Origin: Candidatus Omnitrophota bacterium
GTDB lineage: Bacteria > Omnitrophota > Gorgyraeia > Duberdicusellales > 4484-171
Assembly: GCA_028713415.1 (NCBI GenBank)
Contig: JAQTOI010000001.1
Coordinates: 18,651 to 82,650, forward strand
Direction of reading: 5' to 3'
Length of the DNA: 64,000 bases
Shown here: positions 1,771 through 32,524 of the stretch, one piece after another
Layout of the letters: every line of letters starts with the position of its first letter
How positions within the stretch are numbered: position 1 is the stretch's first letter
The notes under the pieces: generated by a model
Seen by the model: the letters and a program-made list of their open reading frames with translations, nothing else
Databases searched by the model: none
Told to the model about the DNA's origin: nothing
Position numbers and translations under genes: made by a program

Positions 1771-1774
1771 ACGC

Positions 1775-2991: not shown

Positions 2992-4122
2992 ATGGAGAAA
3001 GTCGACATCGTTGTAATCGGAGCAGGGGTGGTGGGGCTTGCGATAGCCGAGCGCTTGAGCAGAAAAAAGAAATCCATTTATCTCCTTGAACGCCATAGTT
3101 CATTTGGCAGAGAAACCAGCTCGCGCAATAGCGAAGTAATCCATGCGGGGATTTATTACCCTTCGGGGTCGCTTAAGGCTAAGCTTTGCGTAGAGGGCAA
3201 TAGCCTACTTTATGAAATCTGCGCTAAAGGAAATATTCCCCATAAAAGGATAGAAAAATTAATCGTGGCGACTAATCCAAGCGAAGAAGAAGAACTCATA
3301 CAGCTTCTAAATCGCGGCAAACGCAATGGTGCAAAGGGACTGGAGATTATCTCAAAAGAAGAAGTAAAAAAGCTTGAGCCGGATATAAAGGCGCGAGCAG
3401 CGCTTTATTCGCCCTCTACCGGTATAATTGACAGCCACAGCTTGATGAAATATTTCGAGGCTGCCTTTAAAGGAAAGGGCGGAGAAGTTGTTTATAACTG
3501 CCAAGTTAAGGGGCTATCTAAATCGCAAAGCGGCTATGAAGTTACCGTGGATGAGAGTACTGGCGAGACATTTAAATTCAGCGCAGCCACGGTAATTAAT
3601 AGTGCGGGTTTAGAGTCGGACACGGTCGCTTCTCTGCTTGGAATTGATATCGCCAAACAAAGTTATTCTTTAAAATACTGTAAAGGGCAATATTTTAGAG
3701 TGCAAAATCCTAAGAAATACGTACGAGTTTCAAGGCTGATCTACCCTGTGCCGCATGAGCGCGCATCAGGCCTGGGAGTCCATGCTACAAAAGATTTATC
3801 CGGAGGCTTACGTTTAGGCCCGGATGCCCGTTACGTAGAGAGAAGCGATTTTAATTATGATGTTGATGCGTCATGCCGCGGTGCTTTTCTTCAATCAGCA
3901 TTGCAACTTCTTCCTTTTTTAGAAGAAGATGATTTGGTGCCGGATACTTCCGGCATAAGGCCGAAATTGCAGGGAGAAGGCGAAGATTTCAGGGATTTTA
4001 TAATTCAGGAAGAAAGCGCTTTGGGTTTTAACGGTTTTATAAACCTTATCGGCATAGAGTCTCCGGGTTTAACCTGCGCACAGTCAATAGCGGAATATGT
4101 AGCGGACTTATTGCAAATTTAA
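2992..4122 (+). CDS. FAD-dependent oxidoreductase (LhgO / L-2-hydroxyglutarate oxidase-like DAO family)
   Basis: 376 aa. N-terminal Rossmann dinucleotide motif DIVVIGAGVVGLAIAERL. Followed by ...RNSEVIHAGIYYPSGSLKAKLCVEGN, typical of the LhgO/YgaF subfamily. Confidence 0.6.
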   Translation: MEKVDIVVIGAGVVGLAIAERLSRKKKSIYLLERHSSFGRETSSRNSEVIHAGIYYPSGSLKAKLCVEGNSLLYEICAKGNIPHKRIEKLIVATNPSEEEELIQLLNRGKRNGAKGLEIISKEEVKKLEPDIKARAALYSPSTGIIDSHSLMKYFEAAFKGKGGEVVYNCQVKGLSKSQSGYEVTVDESTGETFKFSAATVINSAGLESDTVASLLGIDIAKQSYSLKYCKGQYFRVQNPKKYVRVSRLIYPVPHERASGLGVHATKDLSGGLRLGPDARYVERSDFNYDVDASCRGAFLQSALQLLPFLEEDDLVPDTSGIRPKLQGEGEDFRDFIIQEESALGFNGFINLIGIESPGLTCAQSIAEYVADLLQI

Positions 4123-4859
4123 ATATCCTTTCGTTGATATCTCGTAAATCTTATTTTAAACAAACTACAAAGAGATTTTATCCCATCCCGCAGGGGTCTT
4201 ACTTTTGAGGTTTTCTTTTTATCGTGCCAGCGCACCGGCACTTCTTTTATTTTTAAGCCATGCTTAAAAATAAGGTAGATAAGTTCGCTGTCAAAACTCC
4301 AGTCATCACGCACAAGTTTAGAGAATAATAATTTCGCCGCCGCTTTCTTATACAATTTAAAGCCGCAATTATAGTCATTTACGGCTGTGCCTAAAATCAG
4401 CCTGGAAAGAAGAATATAGATATTCCCCAGAATAATTCTATAAAAGGGCTGGCGGGTTTCGATTATCGCTCCCGGGAGACGTCGCGAAGCAATAGCTATA
4501 TCGTAACCTTCTATGATTGCCGACATCAAGCCTTCTATCTGGTTTATGCGCGTTGAGTTATCCGCATCCATAAAAAGTATAAGCTCACCTTTCGCAGCCG
4601 ATACGCCTTCTTTTACAGAGTAACCCTTGCCGCGGTTGGGAGAATGTTCAAGCAAAGTAAAATGGGCGAATAACTTGCTTTCAAGAGCGGCAAGCGTGGC
4701 CGTTTCATCAAGTGAGCCGTCATTAACCACGATGATTTCGTAAGCATAGTTTTTATTTTTAAGGTATTGGGCAACATCCTGGAGCGTGAAAGCTATGTTG
4801 GCTCCTTCATTATAGGCAGGTATCACTATCGACAGATAAATATTATTTTCTCTCACCAT
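4119..4859 (-). CDS. GT2 polyprenyl-phosphate glycosyltransferase (dolichyl-phosphate mannose/glucose synthase-like)
   Basis: 246 aa, the only convincing minus-strand gene in the window. LSIVIPAYNEGANI...IIVVNDGSLDET...FMDADNS (DxD) are GT2 hallmarks. Convergent with the upstream + gene (4-bp overlap of stops) and divergent from 4946+. Confidence 0.75.
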   Translation of the reverse strand: MVRENNIYLSIVIPAYNEGANIAFTLQDVAQYLKNKNYAYEIIVVNDGSLDETATLAALESKLFAHFTLLEHSPNRGKGYSVKEGVSAAKGELILFMDADNSTRINQIEGLMSAIIEGYDIAIASRRLPGAIIETRQPFYRIILGNIYILLSRLILGTAVNDYNCGFKLYKKAAAKLLFSKLVRDDWSFDSELIYLIFKHGLKIKEVPVRWHDKKKTSKVRPLRDGIKSLCSLFKIRFTRYQRKDI

Positions 4860-4909: not shown

Positions 4910-4938
4910 TTGGCAATGACTGGCAAATAAAGTATAAT
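4910..4938 (+). promoter_or_regulatory. Near-consensus sigma70-type promoter. -35 TTGGCA (4910-4915), 17-bp spacer, -10 TATAAT (4933-4938). Predicted TSS about 4945, immediately before the ATG at 4946 (leaderless or near-leaderless).
   Basis: Read directly: ttTTGGCAatgactggcaaataaagTATAATataaaatATG. No Shine-Dalgarno between the -10 and the start codon. Confidence 0.5.
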
Positions 4939-4945: not shown

Positions 4946-5677
4946 ATGTTTCTATCAATAGTTATCCCGGCATACAACGAAGAAAATAGGCTCCTGCCTA
5001 CCTTAGAGAAGATATATTCCTATCTGGGCAGCAACAACTTTGATTGTGAGGTTATCGTTGTGGATGACGGTTCTTTGGATAACACAAAAGATACAGCCCT
5101 CAGGAGCCAGCTCAATAATGCAGGTAAGCTCACTGTATTGCAAAATGGACGTAACAGGGGAAAAGGATTCTCCGTAAAAAGGGGTATATTAGCTTCGCAA
5201 GGGGATTATATTTTATTCAGCGACGCCGACCTCTCAACGCCCATTGAAGAGTTTGAAAAATTATTTAAGGGCGTGAAGGAGGGGTTTGACATAGTTATCG
5301 GCTCTCGTGGCGTCTTTGAGTCGGACATCAGAGTTCATCAGCCTTGGCATAGAGAGAAAATGGGTAAGATTTTTAATTTCTTTATCAAGGCGTTTATTTT
5401 TAATAATTTTAGCGATACGCAGTGCGGTTTTAAGCTTTTTAAGGGTTCTATAGCGCGGGATATCGCATCTAGTACCGTAATAGAGGGGTTTTGTTTTGAC
5501 GTTGAGATGATCTATATTGCTAAAATGCGCCGCTATAAAATTAAAGAGATTGGAGTTATATGGAATAATTCTCCGCAAAGCAGGGTTAAGATATTCGGAA
5601 GCTCAATAGGTATGTTTTATGATTTATTAAGGATAAAGGCGTTACATAAAAACTATAGTGACAGCAAACCAGCATAG
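4946..5677 (+). CDS. GT2 polyprenyl-phosphate sugar synthase (CsbB/GtrB/DPM1-like)
   Basis: 243 aa. LSIVIPAYNEENRL...VIVVDDGSLDNT...FSDADLS (DxD). Immediately followed (stop/start TAGATG) by a YfhO-like GT-C protein. Confidence 0.75.
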   Translation: MFLSIVIPAYNEENRLLPTLEKIYSYLGSNNFDCEVIVVDDGSLDNTKDTALRSQLNNAGKLTVLQNGRNRGKGFSVKRGILASQGDYILFSDADLSTPIEEFEKLFKGVKEGFDIVIGSRGVFESDIRVHQPWHREKMGKIFNFFIKAFIFNNFSDTQCGFKLFKGSIARDIASSTVIEGFCFDVEMIYIAKMRRYKIKEIGVIWNNSPQSRVKIFGSSIGMFYDLLRIKALHKNYSDSKPA

Positions 5678-7873
5678 ATGCATTTTCTAAAAAAGTATCA
5701 CCCCATATTACTTATCTTCATTATCCTGATTTTTCTTTTTCCTCTTGTGACGCTTGAAAAAAGCTTCTTAGGCGGAGATAATTTTGTTCAATTCTACCCT
5801 TGGTTTAGCGCTTATTCGGAATCGATAAAAAATCTACAGTTTCCTTTCTGGACTCCTTATATACAAAGCGGCTTTCCTTTGATGGCAGAAGGCCAGGTAG
5901 GGGGATTTTATCCGTTAAATATCGTTTTATTTTTCCTTTTACCTTTCCAAATAGCCTATAATTATTCAATAATCATACATTTTTCACTCGCAGCATTGTT
6001 CATGTATTTTTATATGCGCCGCTTGCGCATTGGAGCTAACGGGGCGCTATTCGGTAGCCTCATATTCTGCTGCGGGAGCGCTTTTGCGGGATGTTTCTAT
6101 AATATGATTACGCTAAGGACATTAGCCTGGTTTCCTTTAGTATTATTGCTGTTAGAAAAATATGCCGAAAGCAACCGCAAAAAATATTTAATCGGCGGCT
6201 CTTTAATTTTTGGTATGCAATTATTAGCCGGCTTTGTCCAGATGGCTTTATATAGCGGCTTATTCTATGGCCTCTATCATATTGTTAGATCGCGCCAAGA
6301 TAAAAAATCCTGGGCAAAAATAGGCTTAAATCTTTTTGTTCTGGCCTTTCTCGCCCTTATTCTTTATATTCCGCAATTTATTTTGAGTTGGGATTTCGTG
6401 CGTCAGTCAGTAAGAGCCCACAATGTTTCTTTGGGATTTGCTCTCTGGGGTTCATTTTCTCCGCTTGGATTTTTCGGAATGGTTTTTCCTTCAGCGACCC
6501 GGCTTATAAGAGGAGAGTTTTATGTCGGTATTATTGGGTTTATTTTTGCTGTATTCGCCATTTTTTATATAAAAGATACAAAGGAAAAAAGATTTACGCC
6601 TCTTTTTGCAATGTTAATCGCAGCGCTATTGCTGGCGCTGGGTAAATACAACCCTTTTTATACGCTTTTGGTCAAAATCTTCAAATTATATAGTTTTAGA
6701 AACCCTGCAAAATTTTTATTTTTTGGATTATTTTCTCTGTCGGTTTTTTCCGGACTGGGGTATTCTTTTCTGAATGATCCTTTAAGGTATTTCACAAAAA
6801 AAACCGCGGATTTTTTATTGAAATTATTTGCGTCAGCCGTCTTCTTATTTTTCATATTTAAATTAATTCTTCATGTTTTTAAAGCCCCGCTGCTTAAATC
6901 AGGGTATTGGTACGTTGAGAGATTCATTGCCAGCCAGCCTTATCACCGCTACAGCTTAGAATTCTACATGCATAAGGTACAAGCCATATATACTGCTTTT
7001 TCTTTATCATTGTCTATCTCAAGTAAAGGGATAATTTTTTCTTTTTTATTAATCCTTGCGGGAATGTTATTCTGTCACTGGTGTATTGTTAAACCAGGAA
7101 GAATCCGCAAATTAAAAGCAATTTGGTTTACGATTGCAATTTGCGATCTTTTCTTATATGGCTATTACATAAGCGGATTTGGGAAAAATATCATTTCATT
7201 CAATGTATTAGAGCCGCAATATAGAAATATTTACAGTATTATCAAAAGCGACAGAGATAGCTTCAGGATTTATCCTTTCAATCTTTATTCGCGCCAGCTG
7301 CCTAATTGGTGCCTGCCAAACGCAAATATGCTTTATAAGCTGGAAAGCATCGCCTCCTATACCCCGTTAATAGATTATAACTACTGGTTAAAAACAAAAG
7401 GTCTGGGCGTAATCGATGATTCGTTAGGCTTCTTACCCGCGAAAAAAGATGTTTTTACATCAGGCGCCGGTTTACTTAAAGCATTAAACGTCAAATATGT
7501 GATTACGAGCGATAAATTAGACAATGATAAATTAGAGTTAGTTGCAGAGGAAGGAATAATGCGCCTTTATAAGCTCAAAAATTATTATCCACGTTTCTTT
7601 TTTTCCGAAAATTTTGAAAATCCTACGCCCAGCGTAAGAATAACCAGTAAACTGGTTCGTTCGGGGGTTACGTCTTCTGAATTTGAAATTAACAGCGATA
7701 TCGCCGGTTACTTTATATGGTCTCAGAGTTACTCCGAACAATGGGCTGTTTATGTGGATGAGAAAAAATCCAGGGTATTTAAGCCCTATGGCATTCTGCA
7801 GGCGGTTTTTTTACCTCCGGGTGAACACCGTATTAAATTTGTGTTTTATCCGTTGACATCTGTATGTAAATAG
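5678..7873 (+). CDS. YfhO-family membrane protein (GT-C fold, polyprenyl-P-sugar dependent glycosyltransferase-like)
   Basis: 731 aa, more than 12 TM. N-terminal FLGGDNFVQFYPWF...SGFPLMAEGQ block typical of YfhO. Large C-terminal soluble domain. Paired with the upstream GT2, as in CsbB/YfhO and GtcA-type systems. Confidence 0.6.
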   Translation: MHFLKKYHPILLIFIILIFLFPLVTLEKSFLGGDNFVQFYPWFSAYSESIKNLQFPFWTPYIQSGFPLMAEGQVGGFYPLNIVLFFLLPFQIAYNYSIIIHFSLAALFMYFYMRRLRIGANGALFGSLIFCCGSAFAGCFYNMITLRTLAWFPLVLLLLEKYAESNRKKYLIGGSLIFGMQLLAGFVQMALYSGLFYGLYHIVRSRQDKKSWAKIGLNLFVLAFLALILYIPQFILSWDFVRQSVRAHNVSLGFALWGSFSPLGFFGMVFPSATRLIRGEFYVGIIGFIFAVFAIFYIKDTKEKRFTPLFAMLIAALLLALGKYNPFYTLLVKIFKLYSFRNPAKFLFFGLFSLSVFSGLGYSFLNDPLRYFTKKTADFLLKLFASAVFLFFIFKLILHVFKAPLLKSGYWYVERFIASQPYHRYSLEFYMHKVQAIYTAFSLSLSISSKGIIFSFLLILAGMLFCHWCIVKPGRIRKLKAIWFTIAICDLFLYGYYISGFGKNIISFNVLEPQYRNIYSIIKSDRDSFRIYPFNLYSRQLPNWCLPNANMLYKLESIASYTPLIDYNYWLKTKGLGVIDDSLGFLPAKKDVFTSGAGLLKALNVKYVITSDKLDNDKLELVAEEGIMRLYKLKNYYPRFFFSENFENPTPSVRITSKLVRSGVTSSEFEINSDIAGYFIWSQSYSEQWAVYVDEKKSRVFKPYGILQAVFLPPGEHRIKFVFYPLTSVCK

Positions 7874-7935
7874 ATTATTCTTGTATAATATTATTGTCAT
7901 TTTCGGCATATTAATAATAGAGAATGGAGGAATAA

Positions 7936-10116
7936 ATGAAGAAAGTTTTGGTGACCGGCGGAGCCGGATATTTAGGCAGTGTTTTGTGTGAAAAACTATT
8001 AGAAAAATCATATAGCGTAAGATGTTTTGACAGGCTTTATTTCGGCCAAGAGCCCGTCAGGCATCTCATGAAAAACAAGAATTTTGAGCTTATCTGCGGA
8101 AATATCATCGACCTCGATAGCTATCCGTCCCTTCTTGAAGATATTGACGCAGTTGTGCATTTAGCGGGTATCGCAAATGATCCTACCGCGGAACTCGATC
8201 CTCAATTAACCTATAGGGTTAACTGCGACGCAAGCGTCAAACTTGCCGCATTGGCGAAGAGTAAAAATATACAACGTTTTATTTTTGCTTCAAGCTGCAG
8301 CGTTTACGGTAAAGGCCTGGCTGACGTGGTTAACGAAGATTCACCCATTAACCCTGTTTCGGTATACGCTGAGTCAAAGGCAAAAGCCGAAAAGGAAATA
8401 TTGTCATTGGCTGACCGTTCTTTTTCCCCTACGTCGTTGCGCCAGGCGACGCTTTACGGGATGTCGCCTCGCATGCGTTTTGATCTTGCCATTAATTTGA
8501 TGGTGCTACACGCGGCGACAAAAGGGAAAATTTTTATATGGGGCGGAGGGGACCAGTGGAGGCCTTTTCTCCATGTAGCCGATTCCGCGGAAGCGATGCT
8601 TCATTGCTTGATCGTTAATCCCGATAAGGTACGCGGTAAAATTTACAATGTAGGTTCCACCAAAGATAATTTTAAGATCATTGATTTAGCCAATCTAATT
8701 AAGGATATGATTAAGGGGACAACTTTGGATGTGATACCGGAAAATCCCGATAAACGCAGCTATTGCGTGAATTGCGACGCCATAGAAAAAGATTTAAAAT
8801 GGAAGCCCTCAATGAACATAAAAGATGCGGTTAAAGCTATAGGGGCTTTTTGTGCCTCGAAAAAAGCCCAGGAATTAGCAAGTGATACTTTCTATAATAT
8901 ACGAACAGTGCAAAAATTTGTTCGAACGCCGGCCATACGCGGCGGAGACCCCATGTGCCCCCAATTTCTTCCCTTTTCTGTTCCCAGTATTGGTAAAGAA
9001 GAGGAAGATGAAGTAATTGCAACGTTACGCTCTGGCTGGCTTACCACCGGCCCACGCGTAAAGAAACTCGAGGGAATGTTTGAAGAATATATTGGATGCA
9101 AGCATGCCGTATGCGTTAATTCATGTACCGCCGCCTTACATTTAAGCCTGGTTACTCTTGGTATTGAAGCGGGAGATGAGGTGATTACTTCTCCCATTAC
9201 TTGGCCGGCAACCGCTAATGTTATCGTGCATACCGGGGCAACGCCTGTTTTTGCAGACGTAGAGAAAGAAACCTTGAATATCGATCCTGAAAAGATAGAA
9301 GAAAAAATAACCAAAAAAACAAAAGCCATAATCCCCGTGCATATGGCAGGACAACCCTGCCGCATGGATGAGATAAGGAGAGTTGCTAGCAAACATAACC
9401 TTTATGTCATCGAAGATGCCGCGCACGCGATTGGCGCGCAATTTAAAGGAAAAAATATTGGAACTTTAAGTGATTTTACTTGTTTCAGCTTTTATCCCAT
9501 AAAGAATATGACTACTATTGAAGGGGGCCTGGTGGCTACCTCAAGCGAAAAATGGGCAGACTTGGTAAAAGTTTACAGCCTTCATGGCGTCAGTAAGGAT
9601 GCATGGAAGAGATACGATAGAAGCTTTAGGGGCAGTGCCGAAGTAATGTATCCGGGTTTTAAATACAACATGTCTGATGTGCAGGCGGCCTTAGGTTTGC
9701 ATCAATTACCGCGTTTGGATGGATTTATCAAGACACGGGAATTGATATCGCGCCAGTATGATGAAGCCTTTAAGGATATGGAAGACTTGATAGCTTTGCC
9801 CGCGCATATAAAAAATATAAAACACGCGCATCACCTCTATATAATCATGCTTGCAATAGAAAAGTTAAATATTTCGCGGGATGGATTTATCGAAGCGCTT
9901 AAATGCGAGAACGTGGGCGTAGGCATACATTTTAATTCTCTGCACCTGCAGCATTATTATCAAAAAAGATTTAAATTTAAAAAAGAAGATTTTCCGCAAT
10001 CCGCTTATCTTTCCGAAAGGATACTTTCCCTGCCGCTATATCCATCGATGACACAATATGACATAGAAACAGTGATTAAGGCAGTGAAGAAGCTAATTAG
10101 GTATTATAAAAAATGA
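7936..10116 (+). CDS. Bifunctional fusion: N-terminal NAD-dependent epimerase/dehydratase (extended SDR) + C-terminal DegT/DnrJ/EryC1/StrS PLP-dependent sugar aminotransferase
   Basis: 726 aa. Residues 1-~310: VLVTGGAGYLGSVLCEKLL (GxxGxxG) and YAESK catalytic motif. Residues ~340-726: FLPFSVPSIGKEEEDEVIATLRSGWLTTGP...AVCVNSCTAALHL...FSFYPIKNMTTIEGG (PLP-lysine block as in PseC/ArnB). RBS GGAGG upstream of the ATG. Confidence 0.75.
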   Translation: MKKVLVTGGAGYLGSVLCEKLLEKSYSVRCFDRLYFGQEPVRHLMKNKNFELICGNIIDLDSYPSLLEDIDAVVHLAGIANDPTAELDPQLTYRVNCDASVKLAALAKSKNIQRFIFASSCSVYGKGLADVVNEDSPINPVSVYAESKAKAEKEILSLADRSFSPTSLRQATLYGMSPRMRFDLAINLMVLHAATKGKIFIWGGGDQWRPFLHVADSAEAMLHCLIVNPDKVRGKIYNVGSTKDNFKIIDLANLIKDMIKGTTLDVIPENPDKRSYCVNCDAIEKDLKWKPSMNIKDAVKAIGAFCASKKAQELASDTFYNIRTVQKFVRTPAIRGGDPMCPQFLPFSVPSIGKEEEDEVIATLRSGWLTTGPRVKKLEGMFEEYIGCKHAVCVNSCTAALHLSLVTLGIEAGDEVITSPITWPATANVIVHTGATPVFADVEKETLNIDPEKIEEKITKKTKAIIPVHMAGQPCRMDEIRRVASKHNLYVIEDAAHAIGAQFKGKNIGTLSDFTCFSFYPIKNMTTIEGGLVATSSEKWADLVKVYSLHGVSKDAWKRYDRSFRGSAEVMYPGFKYNMSDVQAALGLHQLPRLDGFIKTRELISRQYDEAFKDMEDLIALPAHIKNIKHAHHLYIIMLAIEKLNISRDGFIEALKCENVGVGIHFNSLHLQHYYQKRFKFKKEDFPQSAYLSERILSLPLYPSMTQYDIETVIKAVKKLIRYYKK

Positions 10117-11828
10117 CGGATAAAAAAATTATTTTTTTGATTTTCGCCATCGGCTTTGTACTAAGGATTGTCGGCATTAATTTCGGCCTTCCATTTGCTT
10201 ATCACGATGACGAGCCGATTATAGTTAATTATGCGCTGGCTTATGCGAGCGGAGATTTCAATCCGCACGTTTTCAACATTAGCCCCTTTCTTTCATATAT
10301 CCTTTTTTTTATTTATGGAGCATTTTTTGTCATTGGCAGGCTGTTCGGAGCTTTTCATCAGATAAAGGATTTTGCCTACCTTTATCTTAATGATCCGACT
10401 TTTTTTTATCTTATCGGCCGAGTTGCGTATGGATTACTTTGCGGCTCGGCTTCTATTGTTGCGCTTTATGTTCTAGGTAAAAAATGTTTTGATAAATCTA
10501 CCGGGCTGCTTGCGGCATTTTTTCTTGCTGTCAATTTCCTTCATGTCCGAGATTCACATTATATTTATTTTGATATTCCACTCACTCTTTGCGTGATCAT
10601 TTTTTTTATCAAGGCTATTGATTTTTTTAAGCCAGTCCGTCTCAAGAATTATATTGCGTTGAGCCTATTACTTGGGCTAGCGATTTCAGTCAAGAATACA
10701 GGGTCTTTTCTGGTTTTTCCTTTTATGGCGGTAGTCATCTATAATTTTTTTATTTCTCGAGAGGTATCCTTAAGGATAAAATTTACGCGAATTTTAGTTT
10801 GCCCTGTTGTCGTGGGGAGCGCATTTTTCGCGGGAAATCCTTTCGCGTTCCTTGATTTTAAGGCTTTCTTCAGAAGCGGTTTGCATTTACCGGTAGAGGT
10901 CCCGCCCCCGTTCCATCATCTGCTTGTTTCACTCTTTGGAGGTTGCGGTATGGCTATGGTTTTGTTGGGCCTTGTGAGCATGGCAGTGATACTCGTTACG
11001 CGTAAAAATAAGCGCGCGTTGATTATTATCCTCTTTACGATTATTTATTACAGTGCACTCCATAGGTCAAGTCAGCCTGGCGAACGGCTTGTCATGCCTT
11101 TGGTTCCTTTTATCCTTCTGTTTGCTGCTTGGCTTTTTGTTCTGCTTGCACGTTCCTTGCGCAAGTATAAAATTATTTATGTTGTTATTCCAGCGCTGTT
11201 GGCCGTCCTTATTTTTCCTTCGCTGATACGAATCTATTACGCCAATAAGCTTTTTTTACGCCAAGATACACGGACGCAAGCTTATCATTGGATTAAAGCC
11301 AATATAGTTAAGAATTCGCGTATTGCTCTCGACGCTACGCAATCTTGTTTTCCGCGCTTGGAAAAGAATAAGGAACAGTTTAAAGAACGCGAAAAATATA
11401 TTTCTGTCACTTCTTTCCGAAAGCCACAGGGCGCCGATCAAATGAAAGCCCGGTTTATGCGGGATAACCCCTACTATCCCGCGATAACTTATTATCTTTT
11501 TTATTTAAGAGATGAGGCAACGGTCGGCAAGAAAGGATTTCTTACGATATATCCGGATATCCCTATTGCGTTTAATTCTCTGGGTTTACGAGATATCCAG
11601 TATGTCGTGCTTTCTCAGATTATATTTAAACCTAAATATGCGAATTTTATGGAGGAGTTAAAGCGTTCATATCGGCTTATCAAAGTATTCTCGCCTTATC
11701 GCCGCAGTATTCAGAGGAAAAAGCCAATCGAATTTGCCCCTATTCCGGCCGCAGCTTTTACTTTAGAAGAATTACGTGATAGAATTTCATACGGGCCGTA
11801 TATTGAAATATATGAGCGAATACAATAA
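10113..11828 (+). CDS. GT-C membrane glycosyltransferase, ArnT/PMT (GT39/GT83)-like
   Basis: 571 aa, multi-TM. First periplasmic loop carries the DE motif (AYHDDEPIIVNYALAYASGDF) typical of ArnT/PMT_2 family enzymes. 4-bp overlap with the upstream gene. Confidence 0.65.
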   Translation: MTDKKIIFLIFAIGFVLRIVGINFGLPFAYHDDEPIIVNYALAYASGDFNPHVFNISPFLSYILFFIYGAFFVIGRLFGAFHQIKDFAYLYLNDPTFFYLIGRVAYGLLCGSASIVALYVLGKKCFDKSTGLLAAFFLAVNFLHVRDSHYIYFDIPLTLCVIIFFIKAIDFFKPVRLKNYIALSLLLGLAISVKNTGSFLVFPFMAVVIYNFFISREVSLRIKFTRILVCPVVVGSAFFAGNPFAFLDFKAFFRSGLHLPVEVPPPFHHLLVSLFGGCGMAMVLLGLVSMAVILVTRKNKRALIIILFTIIYYSALHRSSQPGERLVMPLVPFILLFAAWLFVLLARSLRKYKIIYVVIPALLAVLIFPSLIRIYYANKLFLRQDTRTQAYHWIKANIVKNSRIALDATQSCFPRLEKNKEQFKEREKYISVTSFRKPQGADQMKARFMRDNPYYPAITYYLFYLRDEATVGKKGFLTIYPDIPIAFNSLGLRDIQYVVLSQIIFKPKYANFMEELKRSYRLIKVFSPYRRSIQRKKPIEFAPIPAAAFTLEELRDRISYGPYIEIYERIQ

Positions 11829-11830
11829 TC

Positions 11831-12613
11831 ATGGAAAAATTATCTCCGGTTTATTCTGTTGTCGTTCCTGTTTTTAATGAACAAGAAGTCCTCCCTGCGT
11901 TCTATGAGCGTCTGAAAAATACTTTGGATAATCTCGGACTATCGTATGAGATCGTTTTTGTCGATGATGGAAGCACCGATGGCTCATACTCAATACTTAA
12001 GAATTTTGCTCTCAATAATTCCGCGATACATGTGGTTAGTTTTAAAATGAATTTTGGACAACATCGGGCAGTAACTGCAGGATTGCGCGCCGCGCGCGGC
12101 GATTACGTTATTGCGCTTGACGCAGACCTTCAAAATCCTCCGGAAGAAATACCAAAGCTTATCATGAAAATGAAAGAAGGTTTCGATATGGTGGCGGGGG
12201 TACGGAAACTGCGCAAAGACACATTTGGTCGACGTTTCTCGTCACTGATAACGAATGCAGTGATTCGCCTGGTAACTGGTCTATCGATGAGCGACTATGG
12301 TTCAATGCTACGGATATTTAAGCGGGAAACTGCCTCTAAGCTTGCTCGTGTCTTCGAAAAAAACCAAGGCTATATTACGATGCTTGTTGCCAAAGTAACG
12401 CATCATGTAGGAGAGGTAGAGGTGGACCATGATCAGCGTTATGCCGGAACGTCAAAGTATACATTTAGAAAGCTTTTTGTGCTTTTTTTTAAAATTTTCT
12501 GCTACTATGATTGGTTTTCAAGATTTTTTATAGCGCGCGGGAACGAACCTCTCTACGTGATTGATAAGGAGATTGAATATGGAAAGGAAATTATCAAAAT
12601 TGCTCGTCCTTGA
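11831..12613 (+). CDS. GT2, ArnC-like undecaprenyl-phosphate aminosugar transferase
   Basis: 260 aa. YSVVVPVFNEQEVLPAFYERL...YEIVFVDDGSTDGS...ALDADLQNPPEEIPKL closely follows the ArnC/GtrB pattern. Confidence 0.7.
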   Translation: MEKLSPVYSVVVPVFNEQEVLPAFYERLKNTLDNLGLSYEIVFVDDGSTDGSYSILKNFALNNSAIHVVSFKMNFGQHRAVTAGLRAARGDYVIALDADLQNPPEEIPKLIMKMKEGFDMVAGVRKLRKDTFGRRFSSLITNAVIRLVTGLSMSDYGSMLRIFKRETASKLARVFEKNQGYITMLVAKVTHHVGEVEVDHDQRYAGTSKYTFRKLFVLFFKIFCYYDWFSRFFIARGNEPLYVIDKEIEYGKEIIKIARP

Positions 12614-13334
12614 TGAATGGGATTCACGTTTCTTCAAAAAACGCATAGGGAAGCTTAAAGTAACGCATACGCAGAAGCATCTTGTTTCTTTTTCTGAACT
12701 TTTAGCGGTACGCGCGCGCGCAAAGCTTGAAAATATGAATTTTGTTACTGTGCGTTTTGACAAACCAGATGCCCGTCTTGAAAAAATAGCCAGGCGTGGC
12801 GGATTGCGTAAGTGCGGCGGAGGAGTAAATTTTATCTATAAAATTCCGGTAAATTTTAAAAATGCACCCAGTGTTGACTTTAAAATAAAAGAGTGCACCA
12901 GCCAACAGATTTCTTCCGCGTGCCTGCTCGCAAAAGACGCTTTTCGGTTAAGTTTCCTTTACTCTTGCGGTTTTGCTCCTCAGAATGTCATCGATAGGTA
13001 TCACCAAGTATGGGTTCGTAACTTGTACGCTAACAAAAACAGTTGCCTATTAGTTGCCAGCCGCCAGGGTAATGTTTTAGGTTTTCTCGTCTCATCTGCC
13101 GACATTCAGGGCCACCGCGGCAAAATGATGCTTATGGCGGTTAATAAACGATATCGAGGCATGGGCATTGGGAAAAGGCTAGTGGAGGGATTTATTGCTT
13201 GGGCAGCTGCGCATAAAATATCACGCATTGCGGTACGCACACAGGAAGATAATTACGCCGCGATTGCGGTGTATAATAAATTGAAATTTCGTTTACTCTA
13301 TAGCGACAGCGATTACTATATGAGATTGAAGTGA
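12579..13334 (+). CDS. GNAT family N-acetyltransferase
   Basis: ORF track starts at a TTG (12561). ATG at 12579 preceded by AAGGAG (12566-12571) is the more likely start. C-terminal GNAT core RYRGMGIGKRLVEGFIAWA...IAVRTQEDNYAAIAVYNKLKF. Overlaps the upstream GT2 by about 35 bp. Confidence 0.6.
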   Translation: MERKLSKLLVLDEWDSRFFKKRIGKLKVTHTQKHLVSFSELLAVRARAKLENMNFVTVRFDKPDARLEKIARRGGLRKCGGGVNFIYKIPVNFKNAPSVDFKIKECTSQQISSACLLAKDAFRLSFLYSCGFAPQNVIDRYHQVWVRNLYANKNSCLLVASRQGNVLGFLVSSADIQGHRGKMMLMAVNKRYRGMGIGKRLVEGFIAWAAAHKISRIAVRTQEDNYAAIAVYNKLKFRLLYSDSDYYMRLK

Positions 13335-15004
13335 AAAAAAATTTACCAGTAGTTTTTTTGCTGGCTACTTTTGTTATTATTGTTTTTACCTCCGTTAACA
13401 CAAAATCTCCGATTTGTGATGAAGCCGGGCACCATATCGCTGCCGGATATTCTTTTTTAAAAACCGGAGATTTTCGTATGAATCCGGCCACTCCGCCTTT
13501 AACTCGGATGCTTATGGCTGCTCCGCTTCTTCCCCTGAATCTAAAGCTGCCTCTTAATCATCCTTCCTGGCAGAATATCGATAGCACTGTTTTTAACTAT
13601 CAATTTCTTTATGTGCTTAACCAAAACCCGCAGCGTATTATTTTTTTAAGCAGGCTCCCAATGATAGCGCTTTCTGCACTCCTGGGCATTCTGATATTTA
13701 TTTGGGCACAAAAGATATATGGTTACAAGGCAGGTTTGTTTGCCCTGTTTCTATATGTATTTTCACCTACTGTATTGGCAAATGCCGGCTTAGGAATGGC
13801 AGATATGGGTTCTGCTTTCTTCATGTCTCTTGCAATATATCAATATTGGAAATTTAATTCTGCCACACGCAGAAGGACCATGTATCTGTTATTGACGGGG
13901 ATATGCTCTGGATTAGCTTTTTCTGCTAAAATAAATGCTTTTTTGCTGCTGCCGTTGTTTTTTATATGGGCGCTATACCGAGTTTTTCTTGCGCAAAACC
14001 GAAAACAAGAACTTCACCGTCAAACCATTTTATTGCTGATTATCTTTGCTATAAGTTTTATAACGCTTTGGGCTACCTATGGTTTTGAATTCAAACCCTT
14101 GCTGAAAAATGCGCCGGATATTCCTGAAAAAATAGCGTATATCAATAAGCTCTCAAAAATGCTTCCGTTTGTTAATCAGGAAGAAACTGCGCACCGGCTT
14201 GTTGATTTCGCTCAAAATACCCCCATACCTCTAAGCGCTTATATTATTTCTTGTCTCGGTATCATTAATCAAGTAGTTAGAGGGGAGCAGGCAGTTTTCT
14301 TTTTTGGCAACAGTTATCTGCAGGGCTCTAAAATATACTACTTTATCGTATTTCTCATCAAAACTCCGTTGCCTTTTCTGGTGCTGATAGCAATTTCTCT
14401 GCTTTTGCTGATTTTAAAAAAACGCACGCCAGTCGATAAACTAACAAATTCGTTTATTAGCCTCCCTATTATTTTTTTCTTTTTAAGCGCTTCGTTTTCT
14501 AAACTGCAGGGCGGACTGCGTTATCTTTTGCCGATGTATCCGTTCCTATTGATTTGGCTTTCGGATATCGTAAATGTCCGGTTAAAAAATAAAAAAATCT
14601 ATGCGCCTGCCTTTTTTACGGCTATTTCTATATGGTATGCGGCTTGTGCATTTCTTACCTACCCAAACTATTTAGCCTACTTTAATGAACTCGTCGGCGG
14701 GATGAACGGCTTTGGCTATAAAATTACCCACGATCTCGATTGGGGCCAAGATCTTCCCGCTTTATCCGAATATCTGCGCAAGGAAAAAATTGAAACCGTA
14801 AGGCTTCTATACTTTGGTACTGCAGAACCGGCAGCCTACGGCATAACGTACACTGCGTTAAGTTCTCAGGATTACCTTATGCCAGGCAAAAATGTTTACG
14901 CAATTAGTGCCCGCTATTTGCGTGTTCTGCCATGGACCGCTAACGCCACGCCAACTGCTAAGCCGGGATATTCAATATTTGTCTACGATTTTCGCAATAG
15001 CTAG
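13331..15004 (+). CDS. GT-C membrane glycosyltransferase, ArnT/PMT (GT39/GT83)-like (second copy)
   Basis: 557 aa, multi-TM. DE motif in the first loop (SPICDEAGHHIAAGYSFLKTGDF). GTG start overlapping the upstream stop (GTGA). Confidence 0.65.
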   Translation: MKKNLPVVFLLATFVIIVFTSVNTKSPICDEAGHHIAAGYSFLKTGDFRMNPATPPLTRMLMAAPLLPLNLKLPLNHPSWQNIDSTVFNYQFLYVLNQNPQRIIFLSRLPMIALSALLGILIFIWAQKIYGYKAGLFALFLYVFSPTVLANAGLGMADMGSAFFMSLAIYQYWKFNSATRRRTMYLLLTGICSGLAFSAKINAFLLLPLFFIWALYRVFLAQNRKQELHRQTILLLIIFAISFITLWATYGFEFKPLLKNAPDIPEKIAYINKLSKMLPFVNQEETAHRLVDFAQNTPIPLSAYIISCLGIINQVVRGEQAVFFFGNSYLQGSKIYYFIVFLIKTPLPFLVLIAISLLLLILKKRTPVDKLTNSFISLPIIFFFLSASFSKLQGGLRYLLPMYPFLLIWLSDIVNVRLKNKKIYAPAFFTAISIWYAACAFLTYPNYLAYFNELVGGMNGFGYKITHDLDWGQDLPALSEYLRKEKIETVRLLYFGTAEPAAYGITYTALSSQDYLMPGKNVYAISARYLRVLPWTANATPTAKPGYSIFVYDFRNS

Positions 15005-15081: not shown

Positions 15082-15100
15082 AAGCAAAAAAGAGGAGATA

Positions 15101-19144: not shown

Positions 19145-19153
19145 CGGTCCATC

Positions 19154-21531: not shown

Positions 21532-21558
21532 CGCGAAGTTAGAAGATAAGTAATCATT

Positions 21559-23860: not shown

Positions 23861-23862
23861 TT

Positions 23863-28577: not shown

Positions 28578-30062
28578 GTGATTTCTATGGATTATCTAAG
28601 TAAAGAAAAAATAGTAAAAGATACCACGAAGTATTCTCTCGCTACGATTGCCTCGCAGGCCATAGGGGTAATTACGAGCGTATTGTTAAGAAAATTGCTC
28701 GATCCCTCCCTGATGGGAATTTGGACTGGCCTTATGATTGTTCTAAATTACGGCCTTTATGCGGATTTTGGACTATTTTCGGCGGCTACAGTAAAAATTC
28801 CTTATTATAAAGGGAAAAAAGAAAAGCATAAAATCGAAAAAATAATGAATCTATCGTTCACCGTTAGCATTGTCGCGGTAATTTTATTAGCGGCTATGCT
28901 CATTATTGTTTCATTTTTTCTCGGAAAGACTTTTTCCCTACCCGTTATTACCGGGATAAGAATAGTTTCTTTTATTATGATTGCGACCATCCTGTATAAT
29001 TTCAATATCGTTATGTTGCGTGCGAACAAACAATTCACAATGTTAAGTAAAGTTGAAATTTTTAATTCTGCCGTTACCCTTGTTACAGTAATTTTGCTTG
29101 TCACCTTTTTTAAATTGTATGGATTATATTACGGGACTTTGCTGGCAGTGATAGCGAGTTTTTTATATAGTAAATCAATATCACATTACGATTTAAAATT
29201 ATATTTTGATATAAAGGAACTATCCCAACTCATAAAAGTCGGCTTACCTCTTGCGGCATATGGATTCTCATTCACCATATTGATCAGCTTGGACAAAATA
29301 GTAATTGCAAAAGCAATTGGAGCCAAGGATCTCGGATTTTATTCCATAGCGGTATTAGCATTTACTTACGCCCTGACATTTTCTAAACTGTTTGGTATTG
29401 TCACTTTACCGAGCATACAGGAAAGCTATGGAGAGACCGGTTCTATCAAACATATAATGCGTTATGTTAAAAAGCCTACCTTAATATTAGCGTATCTTTT
29501 ACCTTTACTTTTGGCTTTTGCGTATTTTATGATTCCTTTTTTAGTGCATTATTTTCTACCTAAGTATAGAGAAGGTATTACCAGTATGAAGATTATTTTA
29601 GGGGGATGTTTTTTTATCTCCCTGACATATTTAGCGCAGAATTTTTTAACCGCGTTGGATAAACAGATCCAAATGATACCTTTTGCATGTATTGCTGCCG
29701 CAGCAGGGTTGGTACTCGATTACATTTTTATAAAAATGAATATGGGCATAACAGGAGTTGCCCTGGGGACTTCAATATCATTTTTTATTTTCTTTTTTAT
29801 TATCATGGTCCACACACTGAAGCATTGCGATACTTCTATTGAAATTTCAGGATTTTTTGTGAATATTATTCTTATTTTTATATATTCATTCGGCTTGCTG
29901 TTTTTGGTTGAAAAGTATGTTCTAATAGACCGGTTTTTTTTAAAAACATTAGTTCATATGGTCTTGTTTTATCTCTGTTATCTGCCTGCTGTATTATTCA
30001 TTATCAGAGATAAGCCGACGAAAGAATTTTTGTTTCGTTTAAAAGCAAGCTTGGCATGTTAA
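28578..30062 (+). CDS. Wzx-type polysaccharide flippase (MOP/oligosaccharide flippase family)
   Basis: 494 aa, about 12-14 TM. Polysacc_synt-like N-terminal TM1-2 pattern. GTG at 28578 or ATG at 28587. Confidence 0.65.
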   Translation: MISMDYLSKEKIVKDTTKYSLATIASQAIGVITSVLLRKLLDPSLMGIWTGLMIVLNYGLYADFGLFSAATVKIPYYKGKKEKHKIEKIMNLSFTVSIVAVILLAAMLIIVSFFLGKTFSLPVITGIRIVSFIMIATILYNFNIVMLRANKQFTMLSKVEIFNSAVTLVTVILLVTFFKLYGLYYGTLLAVIASFLYSKSISHYDLKLYFDIKELSQLIKVGLPLAAYGFSFTILISLDKIVIAKAIGAKDLGFYSIAVLAFTYALTFSKLFGIVTLPSIQESYGETGSIKHIMRYVKKPTLILAYLLPLLLAFAYFMIPFLVHYFLPKYREGITSMKIILGGCFFISLTYLAQNFLTALDKQIQMIPFACIAAAAGLVLDYIFIKMNMGITGVALGTSISFFIFFFIIMVHTLKHCDTSIEISGFFVNIILIFIYSFGLLFLVEKYVLIDRFFLKTLVHMVLFYLCYLPAVLFIIRDKPTKEFLFRLKASLAC

Positions 30063-31582: not shown

Positions 31583-32524
31583 ATGAAGCTTATAATTCAA
31601 ATTCCCTGTTATAACGAAGAAGAAACACTTCCTTTAGTATTGCGGGATTTACCAAAAAAGATTGATGGTGTAGATAAAATTGAAATACTCGTTATTAATG
31701 ATGGTAGCACGGATAAAACCGTAGAAGTTGCTCGTTCTTTAGGTGTGCACCATATTTTTATCCTTCCAAAACAAAGAGGCCTTGCGTATGTATTTAAGAC
31801 AGGATTGGAAAAGGCGCTTGAGCTTGGCGCTGACATAATTGTTAATACTGATGGAGATAACCAGTACAAGGGTGAATGTATAAAAGATCTGATTTACCCC
31901 ATAATTAAGCAAAATGCCCAAATAGTTATTGGCTGTAGGAACATATCTGAAATTAAACATTTTTCCTTTATCAAGAAATGCCTGCAGTATTTAGGAAGCC
32001 ATATCATAAGGAAAATTTCTAATACCGATATACCCGATACTACAAGTGGCTTCCGCGCTTATTCGCGCGAAGCCGCAATGAGAATAAACATATTCTCAGA
32101 TTATACCTATACACTGGAAACGATAATCCAGGCCGGAAGGAATAACCTGCACATTGCATTTGTTAAAATAGCAACTAACCCAAAATTAAGGGAATCGCGG
32201 CTTATAAAAAGCACCTTTAGGTATCTGGTGCGTTCCGCAGCCACAGCGCTTAGAATATACTTAATGTACGAACCGCTTAGGACATTTTTTTTCATAGGCA
32301 TTTTTCCCATTGTCGGCGGAGGCATCTTTATCGTCCGCTTTTTGATAGATCATTTCACTCGGCCCAGCGGCGGGCATATCCAATCTTTAATAATTGCAGC
32401 TATAGCTATTATTATGGGATTTGTGACAATTATGATAGGCCTTTTGGGAGACATTATTTCGGCAAACCGCAAACTGAATGAAGAAATTTTATATAAGTTA
32501 AAAAAAGAAAATTTAAAAATGTAG
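31583..32524 (+). CDS. GT2 polyprenyl-phosphate glycosyltransferase with C-terminal TM anchor (GtrB/ArnC-like)
   Basis: 313 aa. KLIIQIPCYNEEETL...LVINDGSTDKT...NTDGDNQ (DxD). Two C-terminal TM helices, as in GtrB. Confidence 0.7.
   Translation: MKLIIQIPCYNEEETLPLVLRDLPKKIDGVDKIEILVINDGSTDKTVEVARSLGVHHIFILPKQRGLAYVFKTGLEKALELGADIIVNTDGDNQYKGECIKDLIYPIIKQNAQIVIGCRNISEIKHFSFIKKCLQYLGSHIIRKISNTDIPDTTSGFRAYSREAAMRINIFSDYTYTLETIIQAGRNNLHIAFVKIATNPKLRESRLIKSTFRYLVRSAATALRIYLMYEPLRTFFFIGIFPIVGGGIFIVRFLIDHFTRPSGGHIQSLIIAAIAIIMGFVTIMIGLLGDIISANRKLNEEILYKLKKENLKM

What the first reader, a model, noticed from the sequence alone, without database searches (positions are those of the whole stretch)
4946..7873. 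GT2 + YfhO pair typical of three-component extracytoplasmic glycosylation; six GT-C enzymes in one locus
The GT2 at 4946 (CsbB/GtrB-like) abuts a YfhO-family GT-C protein (TAGATG junction). This is the pairing used for teichoic-acid and LPS glycosylation by polyprenyl-P-sugar donors. The same GT2 + GT-C logic recurs at 10113/11831/13331, 31583 and 44165/49681, and further polytopic candidates lie at 36385 and 54243. Six GT-C-type proteins in one biosynthetic island is unusual. It points to extensive periplasmic-side decoration, or to protein O-glycosylation (the PMT family mannosylates proteins in actinobacteria).
Basis: partly seen in the sequence, partly recalled or inferred. Interest (0 to 1): 0.55.

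Follow-up and report, generated by a model that had tools for sequence, protein, structure and literature searches.

The report
Lipid-sugar synthase beside membrane glycosyltransferases
An uncultured Omnitrophota bacterium carries a small enzyme predicted to load a sugar onto a membrane lipid, directly followed by a large membrane enzyme predicted to move such sugars onto the cell surface; this belongs to an operon with three such membrane enzymes that is shared across the phylum, so it is a new example of a known kind of system.

Summary

Four corrections are needed.
- The GT2 has no membrane helices, so it does not have the CsbB/GtrB architecture; the GT2 at 31583 does.
- No GtrA-, ArnE/F- or GacJ-like third component is encoded in the window; the only flippase-family gene is a Wzx.
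- The GT2-YfhO abutment is specific to this genome. In about 15 of 28 related Omnitrophota loci the order is GT2 | PMT-like | YfhO | PMT-like. Here an Arn-like cassette sits between YfhO and the last PMT.
- Many GT-C genes are normal for this phylum: relatives carry 3-6 per 22 kb.

Most likely function: periplasmic glycosylation of a conserved envelope acceptor from polyprenyl-P-sugar donors. The acceptor and the sugars are unknown. This is a new member of a known kind, of moderate interest.

The parts
4910..4938 (+). Promoter-like site (TTGGCA-17-TATAAT, 11 of 12) in the 86-bp divergent spacer, ending 8 nt before the GT2 start codon
   Evidence: This is a consensus match only; function was not tested.
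4946..5677 (+). GT2, predicted polyprenyl-phosphate sugar synthase; 243 aa with no membrane helix
   Evidence: Pfam GT2 105.7 bits. The top 7 PDB sequence hits are DPMS, ArnC and GtrB. The AF2 model has pLDDT 85.9. The top 25 Foldseek hits are all ArnC, DPMS or GtrB, with TMq 0.57-0.78. Homologues are 56-68% identical, and sources name several 'dolichyl-phosphate beta-glucosyltransferase'. D41 and D93-A-D95 are invariant.
5678..7873 (+). Distant YfhO-family GT-C glycosyltransferase; 731 aa, with a C-terminal beta-rich extracytoplasmic domain
7936..10116 (+). Fusion of an SDR sugar-nucleotide C4 oxidoreductase or decarboxylase with an ArnB-like 4-aminotransferase
   Evidence: Pfam Epimerase plus DegT. 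The C-terminal half matches Salmonella ArnB at 333 bits, and the top 4 PDB hits are all ArnB. The N-terminal half matches 6vo6 best at 154 bits, with UXS1 further down the list at about 90 bits.
10113..11828 (+). PMT_2-type GT-C in the ArnT position of the Arn-like cassette
   Evidence: Pfam. D33-E34 are invariant in the family. The family profile hits Pmt1 at 2e-7, ArnT at 5e-4 and AglB at 1e-3. It forms a subclade with L005, L015 and L018.
11831..12613 (+). ArnC-like GT2, a second predicted polyprenyl-P-sugar synthase, with no membrane helix
   Evidence: NCBIfam PRK10714 (ArnC) at 195.8 bits, covering model positions 8-222 of 316. No membrane helix predicted.
12579..13334 (+). WecD/RffC-like GNAT, a predicted NDP-4-amino-sugar N-acetyltransferase
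   Evidence: Pfam Acetyltransf_1. NCBIfam PRK10975 at 79.7 bits over the full length. The start codon follows the gene call in L001.
13331..15004 (+). PMT-type GT-C, the near-universal neighbour of YfhO in relatives
   Evidence: Pfam PMT 46.3 bits. An orthologue lies next to YfhO or within about 2 kb of it in 20 of the 21 loci that hold sequence on that side. D30 is invariant and E31 is at least 90% conserved. hhalign against the 10113 family gives probability 99%.
4119..4859 (-). Divergently transcribed GT2 paralogue of 4946 (39% identity), DPM1/PpgS/AglJ-like
   Evidence: Orthologues scoring above 200 bits occur in 7 related loci.
28578..30062 (+). MOP/Wzx-family flippase, the only flippase-family gene in the window
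   Evidence: Pfam Polysacc_synt_3. NCBIfam MOP flippase. No small multi-helix ORF elsewhere in the window.
31583..32524 (+). GT2 with two C-terminal membrane helices, the true GtrB/CsbB/ArnC architecture
   Evidence: Membrane helices at residues 237-255 and 269-287. AglJ and PgfS models match over the full length, including the membrane part.
36385..38022 (+). Divergent PMT_2-type GT-C
   Evidence: Pfam 25.7 bits. Homologues carry PF13231 or PF02366. D39 lies after the first membrane helix.
44165..45883 (+). PMT_2-type GT-C, a paralogue of 13331
   Evidence: Pfam. phmmer against 13331 gives 138 bits. D33-E34 lie after the first membrane helix.
49681..50370 (+). AglJ/DPM1-like GT2 with no membrane helix
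   Evidence: NCBIfam TIGR04182 at 108 bits. No membrane helix predicted.
54243..55469 (+). GT87 (PimE-like) GT-C
   Evidence: Pfam GT87 102 bits. NCBIfam PRK13375 at 46.9 bits. D35 lies after the first membrane helix.

Best explanation
Genes 4946-15004 form one co-directional unit of seven genes in an Omnitrophota genome, and the unit most likely carries out glycosylation on the periplasmic side of the membrane.

Proposed mechanism:
1. Two soluble GT2 enzymes each load a sugar from a nucleotide sugar onto polyprenyl phosphate at the cytoplasmic face. One is 4946, which is ALG5/DPMS/ArnC-like. The other is 11831, which is ArnC-like.
2. The donor for 11831 is made on site. The SDR-ArnB fusion (7936) produces a 4-amino sugar, and the WecD-like GNAT (12579) N-acetylates it.
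3. The lipid-linked sugars are flipped across the membrane by a protein not encoded next to these genes. The Wzx at 28578 is one candidate.
4. Three GT-C enzymes then transfer the sugars to a conserved envelope acceptor: YfhO (5678), the PMT-like protein at 10113 and the PMT-like protein at 13331. The acceptor is most likely lipid A/core or another lipid-linked glycan.

The GT2-YfhO abutment is a local rearrangement of a phylum-wide operon with the order GT2 | PMT | YfhO | PMT.

Shown here: family and fold of each protein, conserved first-loop acidic residues, and synteny. Inferred: catalytic activities, flipping, sugar identities and the acceptor.
For: GT2 at 4946:
- The seven best PDB sequence hits are DPMS, ArnC and GtrB.
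- All 25 best Foldseek hits are the same three enzymes over nearly its full length.
- The DXD motif and other catalytic-core residues are invariant.

YfhO:
- The Pfam score is above the cut-off.
- D34 in the first loop is invariant.

PMT-like proteins:
- Pfam scores are above the cut-off.
- The first-loop DE pair is conserved: D33, E34 and D30 are invariant and E31 is at least 90% conserved.
- The two families are homologous.

Synteny:
- Of 28 related loci, about 15 show a 4946-like GT2 followed by PMT, YfhO and PMT. Genes often overlap by 4 nt.
- Four genomes, including this one, carry the ArnB/ArnC-like cassette with their own PMT subclade. The type of GT2 therefore co-varies with the PMT subclade.

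Arn-like cassette: ArnB-like 333 bits, ArnC-like 196 bits, WecD-like 80 bits.

Envelope context: a GT9 heptosyltransferase at 53275 points to an LPS core.

Operon limits: promoter-like sites at 4910-4938 and 15054-15081 bracket the unit.

Precedent: a soluble GT-A enzyme working with a Wzx-type flippase and a PMT_2-type GT-C is described for S. pyogenes GacI/J/K/L in PMC8035078.
Against: - No activity, donor or acceptor has been tested.
- No dedicated flippase (GtrA/GtcA, ArnE/F) or GacJ-like partner is encoded in the window. Two small ORFs tested in relatives are not GtrA-like either.
- The GT2 enzymes lack the membrane anchor of GtrB, CsbB and ArnC.
- All NCBIfam scores for the GT2 enzymes are far below equivalog cut-offs.
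- GT2 and YfhO are never directly adjacent in relatives, so 4946 may serve the PMT-type enzyme rather than YfhO.
- The PMT families are only remotely related to any solved GT-C by sequence, so ArnT-like acceptor specificity cannot be claimed.
Confidence: 0.7

Rival explanations
1. Protein O-glycosylation. One or more of the GT-C enzymes transfers single sugars from polyprenyl-P-sugar to Ser/Thr of secreted or membrane proteins such as pilins or giant adhesins. This would resemble actinobacterial Pmt or the streptococcal PgfS/PgfM system.
For: - PMT and PMT_2 Pfam matches.
- The family profile's best solved relative is yeast Pmt1, at 2e-7.
- The GT2 at 31583 matches the PgfS model over its full length.
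- Omnitrophota encode Tad pili and giant surface ORFs (PMC10066038).
Against: - No PMT_4TMC domain was reported for any of the proteins.
- Matches to Pmt1, ArnT and AglB are all remote, so they do not discriminate.
- YfhO has no WWD motif.
- The neighbouring cassette is ArnB/ArnC-like, and that pathway is known for lipid A modification.
- No candidate acceptor gene lies in the operon.
Confidence: 0.2
2. The pairing is incidental. 4946 is an ordinary Leloir GT2 that extends an Und-PP-linked repeat unit in the cytoplasm. YfhO and the PMT-like enzymes take their donors from synthases encoded elsewhere.
For: - 4946 has no membrane helix.
- Its NCBIfam hits include non-lipid GT2 enzymes at similar low scores: EpsD 54.8, GpgS 50.1 and PgaC 48.9 bits.
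- The island holds two phosphoglycosyl transferases, a Wzx and Wzy_C proteins that need such enzymes.
- Adjacency to YfhO is unique to this genome.
Against: - The 25 best structural neighbours are exclusively polyprenyl-P glycosyltransferases, ahead of GpgS and other GT2 enzymes.
- The seven best PDB sequence hits are of the same kind, with a gap of five orders of magnitude in E-value to the next group.
- The family sits directly upstream of a GT-C gene in about 15 loci.
- Short enzymes of this class without membrane helices are known, such as GacI (PMC8035078) and PpgS (the NCBIfam model is 226 positions long).
Confidence: 0.12
3. En bloc transfer or polymerisation. YfhO and/or the PMT-like enzymes use Und-PP-linked oligosaccharides, in the manner of an oligosaccharyltransferase or ligase, rather than single polyprenyl-P-sugars.
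For: - Und-PP-glycan machinery (phosphoglycosyl transferases, Wzx) lies in the same island.
Against: - YfhO has no WWDxG-type motif.
- Characterised YfhO enzymes use C55-P-GlcNAc (PMC8035078).
- The operon encodes polyprenyl-P-type synthases next to the GT-C genes.
- Two Wzy_C ligase/polymerase-like proteins already cover the en bloc role.
Confidence: 0.08

Closest known systems
CsbB / GtcA / YfhO glycosylation of teichoic acids with GlcNAc (B. subtilis, S. aureus, L. monocytogenes; PMC5836110, PMC8035078)
   Same: - A GT2 polyprenyl-P-sugar synthase gene lies directly next to a YfhO-family GT-C gene.
- YfhO has a first-loop Asp and a C-terminal extracytoplasmic domain.
- The predicted logic is the same: load a lipid, flip it, transfer the sugar outside.
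   Different: - The GT2 here has no membrane helices, whereas CsbB is membrane-linked.
- No GtcA/GtrA gene is present.
- The YfhO match is distant, at 43 bits.
- The host belongs to a phylum for which an outer-membrane secretin is described, and no teichoic acid genes were seen, so the acceptor must differ.
- In relatives the GT2 abuts a PMT-like gene, not YfhO.
GacI / GacJ / GacK / GacL of S. pyogenes (variant 'b' in PMC8035078)
   Same: A soluble GT-A synthase, a Wzx-type rather than GtrA-type flippase, and a PMT_2-type GT-C.
   Different: - No GacJ-like small membrane partner was found.
- There are three GT-C enzymes instead of one.
- The acceptor there is a Gram-positive rhamnose polysaccharide.
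Arn pathway (ArnA/B/C/D/E/F/T) for adding L-Ara4N to lipid A
   Same: - An ArnB-like aminotransferase at 333 bits.
- An ArnC-like GT2 at 196 bits.
- A PMT_2-type GT-C in the ArnT position.
- An N-acylation step before transfer to the lipid.
   Different: - A GNAT (WecD-like) replaces the formyltransferase.
- The SDR is fused to ArnB and is closest to 6vo6 rather than to ArnA.
- No ArnD or ArnE/F is present.
- The ArnC-like protein lacks the membrane hairpin.
- The GT-C is no closer to ArnT than to Pmt1.
Rhizobium RgtE with RgtA/B/C/D, and the mycobacterial polyprenyl-P-dependent GT-C sets (PpgS/Rv3779, Ppm1/PimE, Emb/Aft cluster). Cited from general knowledge, not tested here.
   Same: One or two lipid-sugar synthases feed several different GT-C enzymes that are clustered in the genome. 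The NCBIfam PpgS and PimE models give weak hits to 4119/4946 and 54243.
   Different: - There is no orthology; scores are far below cut-offs.
- The phylum and envelope differ.
- The sugars are unknown.
GtrA/GtrB/GtrC O-antigen glucosylation, and the GT136 pentofuranose three-component systems (PMC11127046)
   Same: Post-polymerisation periplasmic decoration using a lipid-linked single sugar and a GT-C enzyme. In GT136 systems the flippase can be of the MOP/MATE type.
   Different: - The gene content and the GT-C families differ.
- The only GtrB-architecture protein in the window is 31583, not 4946.

Membership tests
Polyprenyl-phosphate glycosyltransferases (GT2; DPMS/ArnC/GtrB/CsbB group), tested for ORF 4946 | GT-A catalytic domain with a DXD motif, closest to known members rather than to other GT2 enzymes | tested here: met
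   The top 7 PDB sequence hits are DPMS, ArnC and GtrB (6e-16 to 1e-12); the next group begins at 8e-8. The top 25 Foldseek hits are the same three enzymes. D93-A-D95 is invariant.
Polyprenyl-phosphate glycosyltransferases (GT2; DPMS/ArnC/GtrB/CsbB group), tested for ORF 4946 | C-terminal membrane helices that anchor the enzyme (two in GtrB, CsbB and ArnC) | tested here: not met
   A hydropathy scan finds no membrane segment in 4946, 11831 or 49681. Two are present in 31583. Short members without an anchor exist (GacI in PMC8035078; the PpgS model is 226 positions long).
Polyprenyl-phosphate glycosyltransferases (GT2; DPMS/ArnC/GtrB/CsbB group), tested for ORF 4946 | Forms a polyprenyl-P-sugar from a nucleotide sugar | not testable with these tools
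   This needs an enzyme assay. The source names 'dolichyl-phosphate beta-glucosyltransferase' on homologues are annotations, not tests.
YfhO family (PF09586) of GT-C glycosyltransferases, tested for ORF 5678 | Match to the family model above its curated cut-off | tested here: met
   43.3 bits against a cut-off of 28.5, over residues 9-645. No NCBIfam model matched. NCBI names the identical protein 'YfhO family protein'.
YfhO family (PF09586) of GT-C glycosyltransferases, tested for ORF 5678 | GT-C fold with a conserved acidic residue in the first extracytoplasmic loop | tested here: met
YfhO family (PF09586) of GT-C glycosyltransferases, tested for ORF 5678 | Acceptor is a teichoic acid, as in all characterised members | not testable with these tools
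   No teichoic acid genes were seen in the window. A GT9 heptosyltransferase suggests an LPS core. The acceptor is unknown.
Three-component (multi-component) transmembrane glycosylation system | A lipid-sugar synthase gene next to a GT-C gene | tested here: met
   TAGATG junction. In relatives the synthase instead abuts a PMT-like GT-C, not YfhO.
Three-component (multi-component) transmembrane glycosylation system | A dedicated small flippase (GtrA/GtcA type or ArnE/F type) | tested here: not met
   The window holds no ORF of 60-200 aa with at least 3 hydrophobic segments. Two small ORFs in relatives gave no GtrA match. Only a Wzx-family gene is present. The flippase may be encoded elsewhere, as GtcA is in Bacillus.
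Arn (L-Ara4N lipid A modification) pathway, tested for cassette 7936-13334 | ArnB, ArnC and ArnT homologues together | tested here: inconclusive
   The ArnB-like match is strong at 333 bits. The ArnC-like match is 196 bits, below the equivalog cut-off of 529. The GT-C is only remotely ArnT-like, at 5e-4, weaker than its match to Pmt1.
Arn (L-Ara4N lipid A modification) pathway, tested for cassette 7936-13334 | ArnA (decarboxylase plus formyltransferase), ArnD deformylase and ArnE/F | tested here: not met
   The SDR half is closest to 6vo6, with UXS1 further down the list. A GNAT replaces the formyltransferase. No ArnD- or ArnE/F-like gene lies in the cassette.
GT39 protein O-mannosyltransferases (Pmt) | PMT domain plus the C-terminal PMT_4TMC domain, and closer to Pmt than to other GT-C enzymes | tested here: not met
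   Only PF02366 or PF13231 hits over about 130-200 residues, and no PMT_4TMC. Single sequences give no PDB hits. Profile hits to Pmt1, ArnT and AglB are all remote.

The most novel reading that the evidence does not exclude
The phylum-wide operon (one or two soluble polyprenyl-P-sugar synthases plus a PMT-like, a YfhO and a second PMT-like GT-C) may build a glycan rather than decorate an existing one. It could assemble, step by step in the periplasm, an Omnitrophota-specific lipoglycan or surface polymer. That would be a diderm counterpart of mycobacterial LM/LAM or arabinan assembly. Such a polymer might be central to the envelope, or to host attachment, of these ultra-small and possibly predatory or parasitic bacteria.
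Probability: 0.12. Interest if true: 0.65.

Novelty: new member of a known kind. Interest (0 to 1): 0.36.

Why it matters
Omnitrophota are uncultured and mostly ultra-small bacteria, and their cell surface is essentially undescribed. The main phylum survey does not mention glycosylation or LPS. A conserved operon with three different GT-C enzymes and dedicated lipid-sugar synthases is a concrete handle on that surface. It also places a YfhO-family enzyme in a phylum described with an outer-membrane secretin and, here, with no teichoic acid genes in view, so the family must have acceptors beyond those known. The parts are small and could be tested in E. coli. The mechanism predicted is the standard one, however, so the finding extends a known theme and does not overturn anything.

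Tried and rejected
- Single-sequence PDB searches for YfhO, 10113 and 13331 gave nothing. A family profile for 13331 gave only a marginal hit at E 0.84.
- I looked for a third component. No small multi-helix ORF exists in the window. Small ORFs next to the cluster in L026 and L005 are not GtrA-like.
- Rfam found no RNA family in the window.
- I considered that type A loci might also carry an Arn pathway and rejected it. Their upstream genes are a GDP-mannose 4,6-dehydratase (324 bits) and an aminotransferase closest to QdtB and WbpE.
- I considered that the LhgO-like oxidase at 2992 recycles L-2-hydroxyglutarate made by a Cj1427-type SDR. The chemistry is documented in PMC10680097. The link is weak because the oxidase co-occurs with loci that lack the SDR-ArnB fusion (L002, L012) and is absent near loci that have it (L005, L015, L018). 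I could not verify that 6vo6 is Cj1427, because the paper is not held; that identification rests on memory.
- Literature searches found no description of this operon in Omnitrophota.
- I found no sign of an assembly artefact: the same junction occurs on two contigs, of 33.9 kb and 86.5 kb.


Full report
**Source and layout**

The window comes from an uncultured Candidatus Omnitrophota genome. The YfhO protein is identical to an NCBI entry from an 86.5-kb contig of a 'Candidatus Omnitrophica bacterium' MAG. The same gene order is present on a Logan assembly contig. Of the 53 gene-sized, non-nested ORFs, 52 lie on the + strand. From 358 to 55469 nearly every gene is glycan-related. The upstream extension L001 adds a GT4, an ABC-2 exporter pair, an epimerase and a WecG-type transferase.

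**Checking the observation**

- ORF 4946-5677 (243 aa) matches Pfam Glycos_transf_2 at 105.7 bits.
- ORF 5678-7873 (731 aa) matches Pfam YfhO at 43.3 bits, against a cut-off of 28.5.
- The TAG stop is followed at once by ATG.
  - 10113, 13331 and 44165 match PMT_2/PMT above the cut-offs.
  - 54243 matches GT87 at 102 bits.
  - 36385 reaches only 25.7 bits against a cut-off of 26.1. About half of its listed homologues with E below 1e-70 carry PF13231 or PF02366, and several are named GT39-family.

**What the GT2 is**

- By sequence, the seven best solved relatives of 4946 are Pyrococcus dolichyl-phosphate mannose synthase, ArnC and GtrB (6e-16 to 1e-12). Other GT2 enzymes begin at 8e-8.
- An AlphaFold model built on 26 homologues has pLDDT 85.9. 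Its 25 best Foldseek matches are those same three enzymes over nearly the whole chain, with TM-score 0.57-0.78 normalised to the query.
- The DXD motif D93-A-D95 and other core residues are invariant.
- Homologues are 56-68% identical. Every named one is from Omnitrophota, and NCBI and JGI call several of them 'dolichyl-phosphate beta-glucosyltransferase'. That is an annotation, not a test.
- The protein has no membrane helix. It therefore does not share the CsbB/GtrB/ArnC architecture. It resembles the short soluble type, for which the review PMC8035078 describes GacI.
- The GT2 at 31583 does have two C-terminal helices, and it matches the AglJ and PgfS models along their full length.
- In all, five GT2 proteins have a lipid-phosphate glycosyltransferase model as their best NCBIfam hit: 4119 on the minus strand, 4946, 11831, 31583 and 49681. 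All scores are below the equivalog cut-offs.
- 4119 and 4946 are 39% identical paralogues on opposite strands.

**What YfhO is**

- The model built on 27 homologues is confident, with pLDDT 87.6 and pTM 0.89.
- D34, directly after the first helix, and E71 are invariant.
- There is no WWD motif of the oligosaccharyltransferase type.
- The last ~130 residues form a beta-rich domain.

**First-loop acidic motif in all six GT-C proteins**

| ORF | Acidic residues after the first helix | Conservation |
|---|---|---|
| 5678 | D34 | invariant |
| 10113 | D33-E34 | invariant |
| 13331 | D30-E31 | D30 invariant, E31 at least 90% |
| 36385 | D39 | read from this sequence only |
| 44165 | D33-E34 | read from this sequence only |
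| 54243 | D35 | read from this sequence only |

- The 10113 and 13331 families are clearly homologous (hhalign probability 99%).
- YfhO is only remotely related to them (probability 55%).
- 44165 is a paralogue of 13331 (138 bits).

**Synteny, the main new result**

- A scan of one genome per species returned 28 loci. Twenty-six come from MAGs labelled Omnitrophota or 'uncultured Planctomycetia'; the other two are labelled Nitrospinia and Gottesmanbacteria.
- About 15 loci show the order 4946-like GT2 | PMT-like (paralogous subclade of 10113) | YfhO | 13331 orthologue. Genes often overlap by 4 nt. An extra locus found through a GT2 homologue shows the same order.
- Three loci (L005, L015, L018) instead show SDR-ArnB fusion | 10113 orthologue | 11831-like GT2 | GNAT | 13331 orthologue | YfhO.
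- In a neighbour-joining tree, this window groups with those three loci for both PMT families.
- The type of neighbouring GT2 thus co-varies with the PMT subclade.
- In no other locus does a GT2 abut YfhO. This window is a mosaic: it keeps 4946 but has no PMT after it, and the Arn-like cassette sits between YfhO and 13331.
- Retention of 4946 here, where 10113 has its own synthase, hints weakly that 4946 feeds YfhO or 13331.
- L012 (DAO | GT2 on the minus strand | GT2 | PMT | MT | YfhO | PMT) is the nearest match to the upstream part of the window.

**GT-C density**

Related loci of 22 kb or less carry 3-6 GT-C genes each. L008 has six; L005, L007, L009 and L026 have five. Six in about 50 kb is therefore ordinary for this phylum, although it would be high for most bacteria.

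**The Arn-like cassette**

- The C-terminal half of 7936 matches Salmonella ArnB at 333 bits, and the four best hits are all ArnB.
- The N-terminal SDR half is closest to PDB 6vo6 (154 bits), with human UDP-glucuronate decarboxylase further down the list at about 90 bits.
- 11831 matches the ArnC model at 196 bits but lacks its membrane hairpin.
- The GNAT matches WecD/RffC over its full length.
- The predicted route is: a 4-amino sugar is made, N-acetylated, loaded on the lipid and then transferred by 10113. This parallels Arn but is not the Arn pathway.

**Missing component and operon limits**

- No small multi-helix ORF exists in the window. The only flippase-family gene is the Wzx at 28578.
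- Promoter-like sites at 4910-4938 and 15054-15081 bracket 4946-15004. These are consensus matches only.

**Verdict**

- The identities are confirmed and the general mechanism is well supported by homology.
- The specific 'pair', the 'three-component' label and the claim of rarity need correction.
- The acceptor, the sugars and the flippase remain unknown.
- I found no published description of this operon.

Noticed in passing
window 7936-13334: An Arn-like cassette: an SDR fused to an ArnB-like aminotransferase, a PMT-type GT-C, an ArnC-like GT2 without a membrane hairpin, and a WecD-like N-acetyltransferase in place of a formyltransferase. The same cassette is found in L005, L015 and L018.
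   Followed up: partly
window 2992-4122: An FAD oxidoreductase whose best match is L-2-hydroxyglutarate oxidase (254 bits against a cut-off of 299). It could recycle L-2-hydroxyglutarate if the SDR at 7936 works like Cj1427 (chemistry in PMC10680097). Its co-occurrence pattern in relatives does not support the link.
   Followed up: partly
window 15365-26740: A nonulosonic acid (pseudaminic/legionaminic-type) gene set: PseB-like, DegT, cytidylyltransferase, PseG-like, GNAT and NeuB. It also holds unusual extras: a B12-radical SAM enzyme, a methyltransferase, a class III aminotransferase, a formyltransferase-C domain protein, a PIG-L deacetylase and an aldo-keto reductase. Similar genes lie downstream of the GT-C trio in most relatives.
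   Followed up: no
window 26749-28479: A 576-aa ORF with no Pfam match and only a 28-bit hit to a BFO_1060-family glycosyltransferase model. It lies directly after NeuB, so it is a candidate nonulosonic acid transferase.
   Followed up: no
window 358-2965 and 48204-51689: Each end of the island has a Bac_transf phosphoglycosyl transferase close to a Wzy_C (O-antigen ligase / O-glycosylation ligase-like) protein. The two Wzy_C proteins are paralogues (about 180 bits).
   Followed up: partly
window 15054-15340: A perfect 12 of 12 sigma-70 consensus (TTGACA-16-TATAAT) precedes a small HTH_17 gene (15101-15340). The gene sits between the GT-C operon and the nonulosonic acid genes.
   Followed up: no
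window 30127-36274 and 52436-53203: Five separate SAM-dependent methyltransferase genes are interleaved with GT2 genes. This suggests heavily methylated sugars.
   Followed up: no
L003 14651-16414 and counterparts in 12 other loci: A further PMT_2-type GT-C clade lies downstream of the 13331 orthologue in many relatives, directly after it in several. It has no clear orthologue in this window; the best match, to 44165, is only 23-40 bits.
   Followed up: partly
window 58305-58987: About 680 bp upstream of the S15 gene contain no convincing ORF and no Rfam match.
   Followed up: no
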